Part shown: one piece after another, positions 42,165-54,100 of the stretch
Numbering within the stretch: the stretch's first letter is position 1
Layout of the letters: every line of letters begins with the position of its first letter
Assembly (NCBI GenBank): GCA_965228875.1
Contig: OZ245843.1
Span: 788,616-852,615 of the forward strand
Reading direction: 5' to 3'
DNA length: 64,000 nt
Source: Thalassobaculaceae bacterium
Lineage (GTDB): Bacteria > Pseudomonadota > Alphaproteobacteria > Thalassobaculales > Thalassobaculaceae
Program-made: the position numbers

Positions 42165-45100
42165 TGATGGCGAGAGACACGCTCGAGATCGTCCGGGAAT
42201 GGCATGAGGCCTTCGACGTTCCGGTGGCCGATGGTCCGACGCTTCCCGAGGCGCGCGCCGGGATGCGGCTGGCGATCCTGGAGGAGGAGATGGCGGAACT
42301 GCGCCAGGCGGTCGAGGCGGGCGATCTGGTCGAAGTGCTCGACGCGCTCTGCGACATTCAGTACGTGCTCGACGGCACGTTCCTGGAGTTCGGCATGCAC
42401 CGCATCAAGGCGGCGGCGATGGCCGAGGTCCATGCCTCGAACTTGTCCAAGCTCGGCACCGATGGCCGCCCGGTGCTTCGCGGCGACGGCAAGGTCCTGA
42501 AAGGACCGAACTTCATCCGTCCTTCCCTGGCGCGCCTGCTTTGTAGAGCAGATCACGATCAGATGGATTCGATCTGAAGCGATCGCACTCCAGGCATCGG
42601 ACGCCGGAGGCGCGGAGGACCTGCCGTGGGGGACGCCGCTGTCTGGCGTGGGCGGACACCCCGGCTCTTCTCCCTCTCAACGTTCCGCCATGGCCGAGAG
42701 GCGAATTCTACTGCGCCGCGGCGAGCGGGAAGTCGCGCAGGCTCTTGCCGCCAGACTTGAACTCGGCTGTCTGCGTATATCCCTCCGACTTCGCGAGCCC
42801 CTCGACACGCGCCGGCACCCTCGAGCCGAGGTCGAACGCGGTGATCGTCTGACCGGACGCGCGCCGGCTGTCCAACTCACTGAGAATGGCGTGGGCGAAC
42901 ACGCCGTTCCGACCGTTGTATCCGTCCAGGGCCTCCTGGGTTTCGGACGACGCGGCCAGAATGAAGTAGCCGGTATCGTTGCCAATCTCGCCCGGGGTGT
43001 CGGTCGGCAGGGCTCCCGAGTGGCAGGTATCGAGAAAAACCATCGTGTTGGCCCCCAACAGACTGCCCAGCAATCCGACCAGCCGGTCCTGATCGATGGC
43101 CTGATCGGGAACCGCGTGGATCCCCTCAACGTTGTGACTGATGAAGTGGTACACGCCGCCATCAACAATGACGCCATGCCCGGCTATGTAGACAACCACA
43201 GTGTCGACCGGCTTGATCCGCTCTGCCACGCTGTCGAAGGCGCTCTGAATGCCCTCCGCCGTCGCTTCCTCGTCGAAGCGCGAGACCACCTGAACATCCT
43301 TGTAGAGCGGGGCACGGGACTGGCTGATCCGCTGCGATACCGAATCCGCATCGCGGCGGGCGAACGAAAGGTCCTGAATGTCGCCCTTGTAGATGTCGAT
43401 CCCCACCGCGATCACATAGAGCGTCGGTTCCGGCGGCGCTTCCGGCTCGGGTACCTTGAGGGTCAGCTCATGGGACTTGCCGAACACGCCGGACGTCGAA
43501 TAGGCCCTGACGTAAAGCTTGTTGAGGCCGGGCGACACGGTGACGACCTTTTCGACGGTCTGAACCTCGACGGCTTCGGTGTCCGCCGGCTTCTTGCGCG
43601 AGAGACCGCGGAACGCCTGGCCGGTTGTCCGGTCGTTCAGAAAAACGTCATACCGGGTCACGGGTTCGGATCCCGGCGTGATCTCGAAGACCAGACGGAC
43701 CCTGTCATGGCCTTCCGGCAGTAGCGACACGGCCGCGGGTGGTGCATCGGCGGACTGTTTTCGAGAAAGACCTCGACGCAACTGGTTGGCGGGATAGCAG
43801 GCGGTGTCGTCGCCCGTATCGGCTACGGCACAGAACCGGACAAGGGTGACGCTCGGCGCCAAGGCGATCGTGTTCTCGACTTCCGGGGCCGCATCCGGAC
43901 GCGCGACGTTGGCCGGTTGGACCAGCCCCACCCGATATCGCATCAGCTCGATATCGTAGAATCGCTTGTAGAGCTGGGAGAAGTCGATCCACCGGGCCAC
44001 CTGCTTGCGGCCACGGTTCAGGACATACCCCGCCAATTCCTGGCCGCCGCCGACCGAATGGGTGAAGTGGCCGTCCGGCGACCAAAGAATCCATCTTCGG
44101 CCGTCCGCGTGCACGAACAGAGACGCGATCTCCTCCAGTTCCTGCCCGGCGACGAGCGAGTACCATCGGATCGTACCGTCCCGGTGGGCGACCACCAGGC
44201 GTTTGCCGTCGGGGGTCGCGACGACGGCGGACGCCGCCGAGAGAACGACCGCCTCCCGCTGTGGCGTGCCGTCCGCCGCATACATCGAGAGTGAATAGTC
44301 GCTGCCGACGACAAAACCGTCATCCGTGAGTTCCGTCGCGCTTCTCGCGATGTCGCGGCGCGAGGACAGGCGGACCAGGCGGCCATCCAGTGTCATCTCC
44401 GGGCTGTCGCGCCAGCCCTCGAGCCTGGAGGGAGGAGCCGGCCTGGCGAAGCCCGGCGCCGGCTCCGGCGCGGCCTTCAGGGAAAGTGTCTTCGCGTCAA
44501 ACCGAAGGGTGCGATCGCGCCCTTCCGCCCGGAAGGAGAAGTCGACGACCGTTCCGTCTTCCGATGTCCTGAACACGCTCTCATACAGGCGTCGGAAGTC
44601 GGCCTTCGGGCTGGATATGCGGAAGAGAAGGCGGCCACTCTCGCCGGCGACGCGGCCCCATGCCGGATCGCCCGTCGCGAACAGGATGTCTCCCTCAGGC
44701 GTCGTCTCCAGGCGGGTGACCGCATCGCGGCTTACCGGTATGTCCGTGAAATCGTCGGGACGGTCGACGCTCCGCCAGCGCCGAACCACGATGTCGCGAT
44801 TGCGGTCGACGACGCCGCCGGACGCCCAGAGTTCGTCGCCCTTCGCGCCGACACGCCAGGCGACCGCGCTGAGGAAGAGTGTCGCCGTGCCCGGCGCATT
44901 CCCCGACAGCGACGTGGCGCGGCGCATGGACCCGACGTCAAGAATGTCCACCCTTGGCCGGTTGGCGTATGCGACCGCGAGTTGGGCACCGTTTGGAGAA
45001 AAACGGACCTGCGCCGGCCGGCCGTCGGGCGCGTTCCATTCCTTCACCGTCGAGAAGTCGTTGTCGTAGAGGCGAACGACCCCGTTTTCGGCCACGGCCG

Positions 45101-51100: not shown

Positions 51101-54100
51101 GGAATGGGTCTCCCCCATCGCCGACAACCGTGAGCGCGCCCGGAACTTGTCGACCACTCCCTGGAGCGCGTCGGCCGGAATCTCCTGGGCGACGACGGTG
51201 TCGATGCCGCTGACCACCTCTCGCTTTTCGGCGTCCCAGACGATGTCCGGGGTGTCGTGCACGTCCACGATCCGGGCGCCCTCGAGGCCGGGCGGCGTGG
51301 TGCCGGGAACGCCCAGGACCGCGACCCGGATATTGCGGTCGGGCGGTGGAGCGACGACCGCCGGTCGACCATGGGCATAGAGCGTGCGTTCCGCGCCGTC
51401 ATCCGCCGAGACGATATTCGGGATCTGCGCCCCCTGCGTCTCGAAGTTGATGTTGCGCAGGACGTACCGTTTCATCTCCGCAAGCTGGATACGGCCGTCG
51501 CCGTCGGTGTCGGCCGCCCCCCGCAAACCGCGCGAGAAGAAGTAGCTCATGGCTCCCCGTGGGACCGCCTGACCGTCCGTGTCGGGCAAGGGGATTTCGG
51601 GAACGAGTTGATCGTCGAGAACGGCACCGAAGGAGATCAGGTTGCTTGGAAACGCCTCCGCCGTCTCCGCCGCCGCGGGGGCATCGAGGCCGGCGAAGAG
51701 ATCGTCTGTCTCTGTGCTTGAGAGCAGATCGCCCTCGATCTTGACGCCTGAAAACCGGTACCGGGGCCTTACCCGCCGATCGACACTCCTGAACGTGGTT
51801 CCGGAGTGGCACGCATCGATCACCAGGACCACCTGCACGTCCCGCTCGGCGGCCTTGCGCACGAAAGCATCGATCTCGTCGTCGAGTATGAACTCGCTGC
51901 GGCCAGCGTCCGCCTTGCCGAAGGCGTGCAGCGGCAGAAACTCGTCGTAGCCATCCTCCTCCGCCGATGAGGCCGGGGCTTCGGCCTGCATCCCGTGACC
52001 CGCATAGGTGAGGAAGACGGTATCACCCGGTCCCGACCGTTCGAGGGCGCCGTTCCAGGCTGCGATGACGGCATCGCGGCGGGCCTCGCCATCCAGCAGT
52101 ACCGTCACATCGGTCATCCCGATGGCTCGGAACGTCGTCTCGAGATCGCGGGCGTCGTTCACGGCGCCACCGAGGTCGGAGAGGATGCCGTCCGGATCGA
52201 GATAGTCGTCGATGCCGACGACGACCGCGCGCCATTGCGTCTCGACGGACGCGGCGACGGTGGCGGTCCACGCGAGCAGAAGACAGGCCGCAATCCCCAG
52301 GACAGCTGCGGTGGCTTGACTAGGACCCGTTGCACGCATTGTCGTACCGCCCGCTCTCCTGGTTGCCTTGTCCGTAGTAGACCTCGACGCGCCGATTGAT
52401 CCGCCAACGCTCCTCCTGTGTGAACCGGTCGGGATTGTCGATGTTCACCGGAATGCGTTCGCCGCACCAAAGCGCGCGGATCGTTCCGGCGAATCCGTTC
52501 TGCTGGAGGTAGGTCCGGATCCGGGTGGCCCGGCGGCCGGACAGGTCGAGGTTGTAGGCGTCGTCGCCGCGTTCGTCGGTGTGCCCGATGATCGTGATCT
52601 CGTTCGGGCTCTCGCGCCGCAGGATCGGGAGCAACCGCTCCGCCGTCACGCGACCCTGCTGGTCAAACTCGTCGGACCCGGTGACGAACGTGATCTGTGG
52701 CGTCTTCTTCGGTACCCCGATCCCCCGGACGCTTGGCGCGAAATAGGCGGCGGTGCCGCCTCCGCGCGTCGTCGGCTCGACCGGGATCTCGGTGAGAACC
52801 AGCGCCTCTGATGCCGCAGCATGAACCGCGTGGATGGTCTCGGCCGAGGGCGCCTTGGCGGTGTAGCCGGTATGCTCCATAAGGTTGAGCGCCTGGAAAT
52901 AGTGTCGCGTTGCGGCGTCGTAGCGTTTCAGGTCCATCGCGAGCGAGCCGAGCTGAGCGCGCATTTCCCAGTGATCGGCATAGGGGAGGTACTCTTCGAC
53001 TTCGCGATAGAGGGCGTCGATTTCGGCTCCCCGCTGGCGCTCGACGCCAGCGATCCGGGCTACGAGGAGACCGAGGTGAGAGCGCGCCGCGATGCGATTC
53101 TTCGGGGGACAGAACACATCGATATCAGTGATCAGCCCGCGGGCGGCGGCACTGTCGTGGGCTTTCAGGCTCTGCGCGAAACTGGTGATGAGGGAGCGAC
53201 AGTTGTTCGCGTCGCCGGCGGTATCGCCTGCTGCCGGACCCGCCAATGCGATCCCAAATACCGCGGCGATCCCGAGGCCGGGTCCGATTAGCCGTTGCCG
53301 CATACTTACGCCTGATCTCCGCGTCATCTCGCTTCGCCCCACCTTCGCCTCGCGTCCGCCACGCGTCGCGTACGGCCTAGCCTTGCCTCGAATTCATCAT
53401 CCGTCCAGGATGGAAATCAACCAAAACCCGAATCCTTGCGCCCTTGCGCTCCCGCCCATTGCAGGGCGCCGCCGGATTTGGTGGATGGACACTGTCGAGC
53501 CGGTCCTTGACGCAGGCGCAGCGATCCGGCGGGGCACCGTGCGACGTGCCGCGGACTCGACCGGGAGCGCGGTGGGGCCGAAAAGAGCTGACTTCCGGGG
53601 ACCGGCGGCGTGTCGGGCAGAGCCGGATCAGCGTGCGACCGCGTGGCGCGGTACGACCGTCTCGGCTGCATCGGCAGGCGGTTCCATCTTCTCCGCGTGG
53701 TGACAGGCGACGGTGTGATCGGTATCGCCGATGGTCCGCAGGGCGGGGATGGCCCGGGCGCAGTCCGCGGTCGCCATCGGGCAGCGGGTGTGGAAGACGC
53801 AGCCCGTGGGTGGGTTCAGGGGGCTCGGCGGGTCGCCTTCGAGCAGGGCGCCACGGCGGCGGGCCCGGGGATCGAGCCGGGGGGCGGCGGCTATCAGCGC
53901 GCGCGTATAGGGGTGTCGCGGCGCCGAGAACACCTGGGCGGCGGGGCCGGTCTCGACCATGCGGCCGAGGTACATGACCACGACCCGGTCGCAGATGTGT
54001 CGCACGATCCCGAGATCGTGGGAGATGAACAGGTAGGTCAGGCGGTGGGCTTCCTGCAGGTCGAGCAGCAGGTTCACCACCTGGGCTTGGATCGACACGT

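What a model noticed while it worked through the whole genome (the two positions that open the first line are those of the whole stretch)
42708..53303. Serpin embedded in a secreted orthocaspase/trypsin gene cluster
A six-gene same-strand cluster encodes, all with hydrophobic signal-like N-termini, an OmpA-domain protein, an orthocaspase, a trypsin-orthocaspase-DUF4384 fusion, a serpin with an inhibitory-type hinge and Arg next to the predicted scissile bond, an SH3 protein and a WD40-orthocaspase. I read it as an envelope protease cascade held in check by its own serpin, i.e. a bacterial serpin whose physiological targets are Arg/Lys-specific orthocaspases and a trypsin. That would be the first prokaryotic serpin-caspase-family pairing, mirroring plant AtSerpin1-metacaspase and viral CrmA-caspase control.
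Evidence so far: Genes g00753-g00758; pfam.tsv: Serpin 83-433 (2.5e-70); Trypsin 47-301 (1e-44) + Peptidase_C14 326-556 (1e-21) + DUF4384 643-725; Peptidase_C14 in g00757 and g00753. Serpin C-terminus ..VDERGTTASAATAILSLRSINTDTFEF..: hinge G-T-T-A-S-A-A and L-R-S at P3-P1 by alpha1-antitrypsin counting. Catalytic motifs intact: TAAHC/DIAL/GDSGGP and YSGHG/DSCHSG in g00756; YAGHG/DACHSG in g00757; DTCHSG in g00753. neighbours.tsv: Serpin within 2 genes of Peptidase_C14 in at least 208 genomes, of DUF4384 in 163 of 2,778 that have both. Serpin in 0 of 62 family genomes and 2.8% of the class by the table; not found in 10 genus genomes; closest homologues 70%. The 2021 serpin phylogeny paper mentions metacaspase [...]
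(Added by a program. Inside this text positions count along the whole contig: contig position 788,616 is position 1 of the stretch shown here. "Call 12" and the like, gene names such as g00115 and contig names such as C1 are that model's own, and its searches are not shown. The text may have been shortened before it was handed on; [...] marks where a part breaks off. The agent that wrote the report below was given it as the finding of a first reader that could run no searches.)

Follow-up and report, generated by a model that had tools for sequence, protein, structure and literature searches.

The report
Serpin guarding a trypsin-orthocaspase operon
A bacterial serpin sits in a conserved envelope operon next to a protease that fuses a trypsin to a caspase-like enzyme, which gives a rare, testable case of a bacterial serpin with a likely target of its own.

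Summary
The six-gene cluster is real (Pfam). Its core is OmpA-domain protein, orthocaspase, Trypsin-orthocaspase-DUF4384 fusion, then serpin. This core recurs in two genomes of another family of the class, in 7 metagenome contigs and on Rhizobium plasmids, including R. johnstonii 3841 pRL11.

The serpin follows the trypsin-bearing fusion. All 10 fusion loci with DNA in hand have a serpin as the next gene. None of 8 evaluable orthologous clusters lacking the trypsin module has one. None of 81 unrelated serpin loci has a C14 or trypsin gene nearby.

One Arg in the reactive loop is invariant in 14 of 14 clade serpins. By alpha1-antitrypsin counting it is P2.

My reading is that the serpin is the operon's own inhibitor and is tied first to the trypsin module. 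Orthocaspase inhibition is neither shown nor excluded. For it: the window's trypsin lacks Asp189 yet the Arg persists, and a serpin-C14 complex prediction gave weak support (0.54, best control 0.00).

The SH3 and WD40-orthocaspase genes form a separable module. My literature searches found no paper linking a bacterial serpin to this operon.

The parts
52320..53342 (-). OmpA-domain (peptidoglycan-binding type) protein with an N-terminal signal-like segment. It is the first gene of the conserved core.
   Evidence: Pfam OmpA 1.3e-12. NCBIfam gave only sub-threshold Pal/YiaD-like matches. Homologues lie upstream of the C14 genes in L089 and L091 (E about 1e-30) and in L128, L133, L138, L140, L141 and L170.
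50693..52339 (-). Stand-alone orthocaspase (Peptidase_C14), 548 aa, with a signal-like N-terminus, an intact His115/Cys177 dyad and a C-terminal domain of unknown family.
   Evidence: Pfam Peptidase_C14 4.7e-17. Motifs YAGHG and DACHSG. Full-length homologues occur in L128 (3e-184), L170 (6e-133), L124/G357 (1e-77) and L089 (4e-31). Its stop lies one base from the GTG start of the fusion at 50699.
48363..50768 (-). Trypsin (S1) - orthocaspase (C14) - DUF4384 fusion protein. The probable start is the GTG at 50699, giving 778 aa.
   Evidence: Pfam Trypsin 2.8e-44, Peptidase_C14 3.7e-21, DUF4384 3.9e-11. The 778-aa form is the one in the protein collection (P0073). More than 80 of the 120 listed clusters carry the same three Pfam domains.
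50559..50564 (-). Zymogen-type activation site Arg69 | Ile70 (G-G-S-R | I-V-G-G) at the start of the trypsin domain.
   Evidence: Ile70 aligns with residue 1 of mature S1 proteases. R or K before (I/V)(I/V)(G/N)G is found in 20 of 20 fusion proteins aligned.
49956..49958 (-). Thr271 at chymotrypsin position 189, the floor of the S1 pocket, where trypsin-type enzymes have Asp.
   Evidence: Alignments to Der p 3 and protein C. In the alignment of 20 fusions, 14 have Asp and 6 do not: window Thr, P0074 Ser, P0076 Gly, P0077 Ser, L170 and P0079 Ser.
47000..48304 (-). Serpin, 434 aa with its Met, with a signal-like N-terminus and a linker of about 80 aa before the serpin fold.
   Evidence: Pfam Serpin 1.1e-69, covering 4-370 of 370. 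Best solved relatives are conserpin, insect serpins and PAI-1, E about 1e-35. It is the single serpin in the genome.
47108..47161 (-). Reactive-centre loop E-R-G-T-T-A-S-A-A-T-A-I-L-S-L-R-S-I (residues 381-398 of P0001). It has an inhibitory-type hinge. The invariant Arg396 (47114-47116) is followed by Ser397.
   Evidence: alignment to the antitrypsin loop: Arg at P2, Ser at P1 by count. Arg is invariant in 14 of 14 clade serpins and is followed by S, T or A (R322 of alignment A4).
45835..46935 (-). SH3_3-domain protein with a lipoprotein-like signal (L-A-A-C, Cys20). It belongs to an accessory module.
   Evidence: Pfam SH3_3 4.2e-13. Homologues lie next to WD40-C14 homologues in L124/G357 (no serpin, no trypsin), L131, L128 and L170.
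42708..45767 (-). WD40 / beta-propeller - orthocaspase protein, 1019 aa, with a signal-like N-terminus and a His864/Cys915 dyad. It belongs to an accessory module.
   Evidence: Pfam WD40, beta-propeller families and Peptidase_C14 3.9e-11. Full-length homologues occur in L124/G357 (1.4e-133), L128, L170 and L131.

Best explanation
The cluster is a periplasmic, cell-envelope protease system of Alphaproteobacteria. Its conserved core is an OmpA-domain anchor protein, a stand-alone orthocaspase and a second orthocaspase carrying DUF4384. In one widespread variant the second orthocaspase has gained an N-terminal trypsin-fold protease made as a zymogen, with a propeptide ending in Arg/Lys before I-V-G-G. 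That variant always carries a serpin gene directly downstream.

I read the serpin as the operon's own suicide inhibitor. Its first task would be to hold the trypsin module in check inside the producer's periplasm, with the invariant loop Arg as the likely P1 and the small residue after it as P1'. The SH3 lipoprotein and the WD40-orthocaspase are a second, separable module that joins this core in the window's lineage.

Shown: gene content, catalytic residues, conserved gene order, the phyletic coupling, and the conservation of the loop Arg and of the activation site.

Inferred: secretion, inhibition, which protease is trapped, and what the system does for the cell.
For: 1. Conserved order with tight spacing.
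- In L089 and L091 the fusion and serpin genes overlap by 4 nt.
- In R. johnstonii pRL11 the C14 and fusion genes overlap by 4 nt, and the serpin starts 13 nt after the fusion.
- In the window the gaps are 1 to 67 nt.

2. Coupling to the trypsin-bearing fusion.
- In the class sample of 400 other genomes, trypsin and C14 parts matched in one ORF only in G100 and G264. Both have the serpin next door.
- Of 80 metagenome loci anchored on the fused C14 domain, 7 have trypsin plus C14 in one ORF. All 7 have a serpin as the next ORF. None of the other 73 has a serpin.
- Of 11 trypsin-less C14+DUF4384 loci, 8 have at least 1.3 kb downstream, and 0 of those 8 has a serpin.
- On plasmids, 86 records carry the fusion at 80% coverage or more, and 86 Rhizobium records carry a serpin. 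In 14 of 14 records printed in both lists the two are adjacent on one strand.

3. Specificity of the link. 81 of 83 other serpin loci (76 from across prokaryotes plus 7 from the class, the two exceptions being L089 and L091) have no C14 or trypsin ORF in the held flanks. The local C14 profile found cyanobacterial C14s at 5e-43.

4. The serpin looks inhibitory. It has a full-length fold match and the hinge E-x-G-T-x-A-S/A-A-A-T.

5. The loop Arg is invariant in 14 of 14 clade serpins. Asp189 is present in 14 of 20 fusion trypsin domains. This fits an Arg-P1 serpin for a trypsin-type enzyme in most lineages.

6. By established knowledge, serpins are above all inhibitors of chymotrypsin-fold serine proteases.
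Against: 1. In the window itself, and in L170, P0074, P0076 and P0077, position 189 is Thr, Ser or Gly and position 226 is not acidic. So this trypsin domain may not take Arg, yet the serpin keeps Arg-Ser.

2. The coupling may rest on few events. On the C14 tree the fusion-plus-serpin rows form 3 well-supported clades, but well-supported branches force only 1 change, and only 1 independent pair exists.

3. Trypsin homologues without C14 (G234, G079) occur in genomes where no serpin was found with this query.

4. Pseudosulfitobacter plasmids (46 records, one lineage) encode a secreted caspase and a secreted trypsin as neighbouring genes. They have no serpin within 8 kb, and no Pseudosulfitobacter record appears in the organism tally of the plasmid serpin search.

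5. Secretion rests on reading the N-termini by eye.

6. There are no expression or biochemical data.
Confidence: 0.55

Rival explanations
1. Cross-class reading. The serpin traps the Arg/Lys-specific orthocaspases of the operon, alone or together with the trypsin module. This would mirror CrmA with caspases and AtSerpin1 with metacaspases.
For: - The loop Arg is invariant in 14 of 14 clade serpins, even where the neighbouring trypsin has lost Asp189 (window, L170).
- Orthocaspases cleave after basic residues (abstract of PMC6426788).
- All three C14 domains of the window keep the His/Cys dyad.
- Complex prediction of the serpin (A4) with the fused C14 domain (A5) gave weak support. Scores were 0.57, 0.54 and 0.51, median 0.54, with best control 0.00. 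The mark was reached by 116 of 157 solved complexes and 2 of 215 mismatched pairs. At 0.60 or under it was reached by only 18 of those 157 and by both mismatches that passed. The runs share at least 64% of contacts, and the partner's pLDDT is at least 71.
Against: - Orthologous orthocaspase clusters without trypsin have no serpin: 0 of 8 evaluable loci, and G006 and G357 genome-wide with this query.
- In L139-L141 and R. johnstonii pRL11 the fused C14 has Gln for the catalytic His and has lost the acidic motif, yet the serpin stays. The stand-alone C14 there is intact.
- The tool's own text calls a pass at this score more often wrong than right unless the guess was likely beforehand.
- No comparison run with the trypsin domain was possible (cap).
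Confidence: 0.25
2. The serpin is a shield against foreign proteases. It would protect the envelope protease complex or the cell surface from proteases of competitors, predators or hosts, as proposed for cellulosomal and gut bacterial serpins. It would not regulate its own operon's enzymes.
For: - The characterised bacterial serpins met in my searches act on exogenous proteases (abstracts: miropin of Tannerella, Clostridium thermocellum serpins).
- The window's trypsin lacks Asp189 while the serpin keeps Arg.
- The genome also encodes other secreted S1 proteases with Asp189 far from the cluster. So targets in trans exist in principle.
Against: - This does not explain why the serpin is found only beside the trypsin-bearing fusion and never beside the trypsin-less form of the same operon.
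- It does not explain the overlapping stop and start codons with the fusion gene.
Confidence: 0.1
3. The serpin is non-inhibitory here. It would serve as a chaperone, a scaffold or a substrate or decoy whose cleavage signals to the system.
For: - In L089, L091 and L133 the hinge departs from the usual pattern, with Ala/Ser at P14 and Val at P12.
- By count the Arg is one residue short of the canonical P1.
Against: - The window's hinge (G-T-T-A-S-A-A-T) fits the inhibitory pattern.
- Conservation of Arg followed by a small residue is what an Arg-P1 inhibitor would show.
Confidence: 0.05

Closest known systems
Alphaproteobacterial Trypsin - QC pseudo-orthocaspase - DUF4384 proteins (Klemencic et al. 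2019, PMC6426788; passages read)
   Same: The three-domain architecture is the same. The Rhizobium and L139-L141 members of the operon family carry exactly the Gln-Cys dyad described there.
   Different: The window's fusion keeps an intact His-Cys dyad. The passages I read say nothing of a serpin or of the operon: 'serpin' and 'OmpA' occur 0 times in that paper.
AtSerpin1 - metacaspase (AtMC1) control in Arabidopsis. I saw only the reference title, in PMC8233489; the rest is recalled.
   Same: A serpin with a basic residue in the loop, encoded by an organism that has Arg/Lys-specific caspase-family proteases.
   Different: In the plant the pairing is shown by experiment and the genes are not linked. 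Here the link is gene order only, and it follows the trypsin module rather than the orthocaspases.
CrmA - caspase inhibition by a viral serpin. I saw only the reference title, in PMC8233489; the rest is recalled.
   Same: A candidate cross-class serpin. By count the conserved Arg lies one residue before the canonical P1. From memory this is also the position of CrmA's P1; a search for 'one residue shorter' found no paper.
   Different: CrmA is an Asp-P1 inhibitor that a virus aims at host enzymes. This serpin is Arg-bearing and sits in the producer's own protease operon.
Serpin control of S1 zymogen cascades in animals, such as coagulation and arthropod clip-protease cascades (recalled, established knowledge)
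   Same: A trypsin-fold zymogen with an Arg | I-V-G-G activation site, plus an Arg-loop serpin, plus a possible upstream Arg-specific protease.
   Different: This one is prokaryotic and periplasmic, the S1 domain is fused to a caspase-family domain, and no cascade step has been shown.
Bacterial serpins with exogenous targets, such as miropin of Tannerella forsythia and Clostridium thermocellum serpins (abstracts; PDB hits 5ncs-5ncw)
   Same: Secreted bacterial serpins with inhibitory hinges.
   Different: Those are not reported next to a cognate protease gene of the producer. In my sample, 81 of 83 other serpin loci had no C14 or trypsin nearby.

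Membership tests
Inhibitory serpin (MEROPS I4) | Complete serpin fold | tested here: met
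   Pfam PF00079 at 235.9 bits, covering profile 4-370 of 370. 196 solved serpin sequences were matched, the best at 7e-36.
Inhibitory serpin (MEROPS I4) | Hinge of the reactive loop: Glu at P17, Gly at P15, Thr/Ser at P14, small residues at P12-P9 | tested here: met
   E-R-G-T-T-A-S-A-A-T aligned to the antitrypsin loop. E381, G383, T384, A386, A388 and T390 are invariant among 30 bacterial serpins. The consensus itself is recalled knowledge.
Inhibitory serpin (MEROPS I4) | 17 residues from P17 to the scissile P1 that matches the target | tested here: inconclusive
   By count P1 is Ser and the invariant Arg is P2. If Arg is P1 the loop is one residue short.
Inhibitory serpin (MEROPS I4) | Forms a covalent complex with, and inhibits, a protease | not testable with these tools
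   Needs biochemistry.
Trypsin-type S1 protease (Arg/Lys-specific) | His-Asp-Ser triad, oxyanion hole and Asp194, and the N-terminal I-V-G-G of the mature enzyme | tested here: met
   TAAHC, DIAL and GDSGGP are present, with Ile70 after Arg69.
Trypsin-type S1 protease (Arg/Lys-specific) | Asp at position 189 of the S1 pocket | tested here: not met
   The window has Thr271. 14 of 20 related fusions do have Asp. So it is an S1 protease, but I do not file it as trypsin-specific.
Orthocaspase (Peptidase_C14, prokaryotic) | p20 domain with a His-Cys dyad | tested here: met
   Three domains pass Pfam (43.5 to 76.3 bits against a cut-off of 21.4). The dyads are intact.
Orthocaspase (Peptidase_C14, prokaryotic) | Cleavage after Arg/Lys | not testable with these tools
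   This is a family property stated in the abstract of PMC6426788. The acidic D-E-x-D-G-x-D-E motif is conserved in the active fused domains.
Serpin - caspase-family inhibitor pair (CrmA or AtSerpin1 type) | The serpin accompanies the caspase-family protease as such | tested here: not met
   0 of 8 evaluable trypsin-less orthocaspase clusters carries a serpin. G006 and G357 carry none with this query.
Serpin - caspase-family inhibitor pair (CrmA or AtSerpin1 type) | Physical binding of the serpin to the C14 domain | tested here: inconclusive
   Complex prediction gave weak support: 0.54 against a best control of 0.00. At 0.60 or under, only 18 of 157 solved complexes reached the mark, as did both of the 2 mismatches (of 215) that passed.
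Known anti-phage defence systems (PADLOC) | Match to a system's component models | tested here: not met
   Only generic 'caspase' and MotB-like domain matches appeared, and none for the serpin. NCBIfam gave nothing over cut-off.

The most novel reading that the evidence does not exclude
A bacterial periplasmic zymogen cascade. An Arg-specific orthocaspase, either the fused domain or the stand-alone one, cuts the conserved Arg | I-V-G-G bond and so switches on the trypsin module. The operon's serpin, with Arg as P1 on a loop one residue short, traps both the orthocaspase and the trypsin. That would make it the first prokaryotic cross-class serpin for a caspase-family protease, acting as the off-switch of an envelope cell-death or remodelling system.
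Probability: 0.2. Interest if true: 0.85.

Novelty: new variant of a known kind. Interest (0 to 1): 0.6.

Why it matters
The physiological targets of bacterial serpins are mostly unknown. The ones met in my searches are discussed as shields against foreign proteases. Here a serpin is genetically tied to a protease of its own operon across deep divergence.

The same operon sits on plasmids of model rhizobia that can be grown and mutated: R. johnstonii 3841, R. etli CFN 42 and R. leguminosarum WSM1325. The pairing can therefore be tested directly.

It also opens orthocaspase biology outside cyanobacteria. These are secreted, multi-copy enzymes, one of them fused to a trypsinogen-like domain whose activation site matches what orthocaspases cut. 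If the serpin also traps the orthocaspases, control of caspase-family enzymes by serpins would extend to bacteria.

Tried and rejected
1. General serpin-orthocaspase adjacency: rejected. 81 of 83 other serpin loci show no C14 or trypsin ORF in the held flanks. Many flanks are shorter than 10 kb because contigs end.

2. Mapping Pfam C14 matches in five serpin-bearing genomes onto serpin loci through the genome search handles. Contig numbers could not be matched to contig names. One look-alike position proved to lie on another contig.

3. Loop as a mimic of the trypsin activation site. The P4-P2 residues of the two sites share nothing within any lineage (read). Dropped.

4. Known defence or named systems: PADLOC and NCBIfam gave nothing over cut-off.

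5. Island signs. There is no tRNA in the window and no composition shift. The promoter and terminator scan was no better than shuffles. The cluster is nevertheless accessory: no orthologue of the 548-aa C14 was found in 62 other genomes of the order.

6. Expression: no RNA holder listed. No reads were laid.

8. Literature on a loop one residue shorter: 0 papers. The CrmA parallel therefore stays a recollection.

9. The context of the 70% relatives could not be fetched. The only hint is that serpin P0003 and fusion P0074 share a longest-contig length of 24259.

Full report
**What is there**

Six ORFs lie head to tail on the minus strand between 42708 and 53342. Pfam gives, in order of transcription:
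- an OmpA-domain protein (52320-53342; 1.3e-12);
- a 548-aa Peptidase_C14 protein (50693-52339; 4.7e-17);
- a Trypsin + Peptidase_C14 + DUF4384 fusion (48363-50768; 2.8e-44, 3.7e-21, 3.9e-11);
- a serpin (47000-48304; 1.1e-69, full profile);
- an SH3_3 protein (45835-46935; 4.2e-13);
- a WD40 / beta-propeller + Peptidase_C14 protein (42708-45767).

The fusion most likely starts at the GTG at 50699, which gives the 778-aa form held in the protein collection. That start lies one base after the stop of the C14 gene. The other gaps are 58-67 nt, and the first two ORFs overlap.

Every N-terminus has a charged then hydrophobic stretch, and the SH3 protein has L-A-A-C at Cys20, which looks like a lipobox. 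This is read by eye; no signal-peptide tool was on hand.

The flanks are housekeeping genes: nqr, an M20 peptidase, class Ib ribonucleotide reductase and a MazG-like gene on one side, and an Opp-type ABC transporter on the other. There is no tRNA and no composition shift.

**The serpin**

It aligns over its whole length with solved inhibitory serpins.

The hinge fits the inhibitory pattern, and its key residues are invariant among 30 bacterial serpins. It is the only serpin in the genome.

Serpins are rare around it. None was found in 62 other genomes of the order, and 7 of 400 others of the class have one. The nearest relatives are 70% identical, one of them named from Thalassobaculum salexigens; the next drop to 34%.

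**The operon recurs**

Two of the seven class genomes with a serpin (G100 and G264, one genus of another family) carry OmpA protein, C14-like protein, Trypsin-C14-DUF4384 and serpin in the same order. There the fusion and serpin genes overlap by 4 nt. Their serpins are 25% identical to the window's.

A metagenome scan anchored on the fused C14 domain (alignment A3) returned 80 loci, five pairs of which are duplicates.
- Seven loci have trypsin and C14 in one ORF: L128, L133, L138, L139, L140, L141 and L170. All seven have a serpin as the next ORF on the same strand.
- Six of the seven also show the OmpA and C14 genes upstream. The seventh is cut by the contig end.
- L128 and L170 carry the full six-gene set.

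On plasmids, 86 records hold the fusion at 80% coverage or more, and 86 Rhizobium records hold a serpin. In the 14 records that appear in the printed rows of both searches, the two matches are adjacent on one strand.

In R. johnstonii 3841 pRL11 the order is DUF4384+TPR+OmpA protein, C14, Trypsin-C14-DUF4384, serpin, then a Ser/Thr kinase.

**What the serpin follows**

The same operon exists without the trypsin module. Eleven metagenome loci have a C14+DUF4384 ORF with no trypsin, usually behind OmpA and C14 genes. Eight of them have at least 1.3 kb downstream, and none has a serpin anywhere in the locus.
- G006 has an OmpA-like+C14+DUF4384 protein.
- G357 has close homologues of the window's stand-alone C14 (1e-77), SH3 protein (1e-27) and WD40-C14 (1e-133).
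- Neither genome has a trypsin fusion, and no serpin was found in either with this query.

So SH3 plus WD40-C14 is a separable module, and the orthocaspases as such do not bring a serpin.

Conversely, of 83 serpin loci sampled without regard to proteases (76 from across prokaryotes; 7 from the class), only L089 and L091 have a C14 or trypsin ORF in the held flanks. The local C14 profile was checked on cyanobacterial orthocaspases and found them at 5e-43 and 2e-31.

**Limits of that pattern**

On a tree of the C14 domains the fusion-plus-serpin rows form three well-supported clades interleaved with trypsin-less ones. The fewest changes are 3, but well-supported branches force only 1, and only one phylogenetically independent pair exists. 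What is shown is joint retention over deep divergence, not repeated joint gain.

Trypsin homologues without C14 occur in genomes where no serpin was found (G234, G079).

Pseudosulfitobacter plasmids (46 records, one lineage) have a secreted caspase and a secreted trypsin as neighbouring genes. They have no serpin within 8 kb, and no Pseudosulfitobacter record appears in the organism tally of the plasmid serpin search.

**The loop Arg and the S1 pocket**

In 14 of 14 serpins of this clade the residue at the sixteenth place from the P17 Glu is Arg, followed by Ser, Thr or Ala. The residues before it vary: L-R-S, T-R-A, L-R-T, E-R-S, K-R-S (R. johnstonii E-R-S). That is what an Arg-P1, small-P1' inhibitor would show, on a loop one residue shorter than antitrypsin's.

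The trypsin domains all keep the triad and a zymogen-type site, R or K before (I/V)(I/V)(G/N)G, in 20 of 20. Asp189 is present in 14 of 20. The window has Thr, and P0074, P0076, P0077 and L170/P0079 have Ser or Gly. None of these has an acidic residue at 226.

So in most lineages the Arg loop fits the trypsin next door. In the window's lineage it no longer obviously does, and yet the Arg-Ser is kept.

In L139-L141 and in Rhizobium the fused C14 is the Gln-Cys pseudo-enzyme described by Klemencic et al. 2019 (PMC6426788, passages). It has also lost the acidic motif, while the serpin stays. The stand-alone C14 there is intact.

**Complex prediction**

The verdict was weak support.
- Scores were 0.57, 0.54 and 0.51, median 0.54, with best control 0.00.
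- The mark was reached by 116 of 157 solved complexes and 2 of 215 mismatched pairs. At 0.60 or under it was reached by only 18 of those 157 and by both mismatches that passed.
- The runs share at least 64% of contacts, the partner's pLDDT is at least 71, and no interface was given.

The tool says such a pass is more often wrong than right unless the guess was likely beforehand. It keeps the cross-class reading alive but does not establish it. No matching run with the trypsin domain was possible.

**Reading**

The best-supported account is an envelope protease operon whose trypsin-bearing variant needs, and keeps, its own serpin. I put 0.55 on the serpin being first of all the inhibitor of the trypsin module.

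The other odds are:
- 0.25 that it acts on the orthocaspases as well or instead;
- 0.10 that it shields against foreign proteases;
- 0.05 that it is not an inhibitor.

A zymogen cascade in which an Arg-specific orthocaspase cuts the Arg | I-V-G-G bond is attractive and fits the conserved site. No step of it is shown.

What the system does for the cell is unknown. It matches no PADLOC or NCBIfam system. In this order it is accessory: no orthologue of the 548-aa C14 was found in 62 other genomes.

**Novelty**

The three-domain fusion is in print for the Gln-Cys form. OmpA in metacaspase operons and multi-metacaspase operons in Alphaproteobacteria are in print too (PMC3501461, passages). Neither paper mentions a serpin.

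The 2021 serpin phylogeny (PMC8233489) has 'metacaspase' only in a reference title.

None of these searches gave a paper that links a bacterial serpin to this operon or to an orthocaspase:
- serpin + metacaspase + bacteria;
- serpin + orthocaspase;
- DUF4384 + caspase;
- bacterial serpin + operon + protease + periplasm;
- serpin + Rhizobium leguminosarum;
- prokaryotic serpin + caspase.

The library lacks most subscription journals, and I read no supplements.

I rate it a new variant of a known kind, a serpin with a cognate protease, with interest 0.6.

Noticed in passing
G000:C1 about 752.4-755.0 kb (locus L208 2450-4992), roughly 34 kb before the window's first base: Two further secreted-looking S1 proteases sit side by side. 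Both have Asp at position 189, and one has an R | I-I-N-G activation site. They could be targets in trans of the genome's single serpin.
   Followed up: partly
L215 (Porphyrobacter sp. YT40 plasmid pYT40) 4390-14729: A serpin (Pfam 1e-82) sits in the middle of a run of eight same-strand, partly overlapping genes. None of the other seven has a Pfam match. This is a second, different serpin operon of unknown content.
   Followed up: partly
L218 (Pseudosulfitobacter pseudonitzschiae plasmid P5) 7941-16187: The genes run secreted caspase, secreted trypsin (Gly at 189, R | V-I-G-G), a 908-aa unknown protein, a 235-aa unknown protein, then a CHAT-domain protein, all with signal-like N-termini and no serpin. 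46 plasmid records of this genus match.
   Followed up: partly
L124 (G357) 8811-14964: Close homologues of the window's stand-alone C14, SH3 protein and WD40-C14 form a cluster of their own, with the C14 gene divergent from the other two. There is no trypsin or serpin.
   Followed up: partly
window 38917-41181; L089 15145-18873; L091 11826-15560: The cluster lies a few kb from a ribonucleotide reductase gene both in the window (class Ib type) and in G100 and G264 (class II type). This is probably chance.
   Followed up: no
L214 (Rhizobium indicum plasmid) 9087-13604; L217 12654-15059: In the Rhizobium plasmids the serpin is followed by an 801-aa Ser/Thr kinase gene. In R. indicum a gene annotated as retron Ec67-type reverse transcriptase/endonuclease comes after that.
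   Followed up: no
window 46900-50800: Near-identical DNA is indexed in contigs of 20 public runs from 12 studies, labelled seawater, aquatic, coral, pond or aquaculture metagenomes. 16 runs hold half or more of the sampled words.
   Followed up: no
L182/L184, L191, L198, L203, L205 (metagenome loci): In some trypsin-less clusters a DUF4384-like domain is a separate small gene right after the stand-alone-type C14 gene. So DUF4384 moves between fused and free forms.
   Followed up: no
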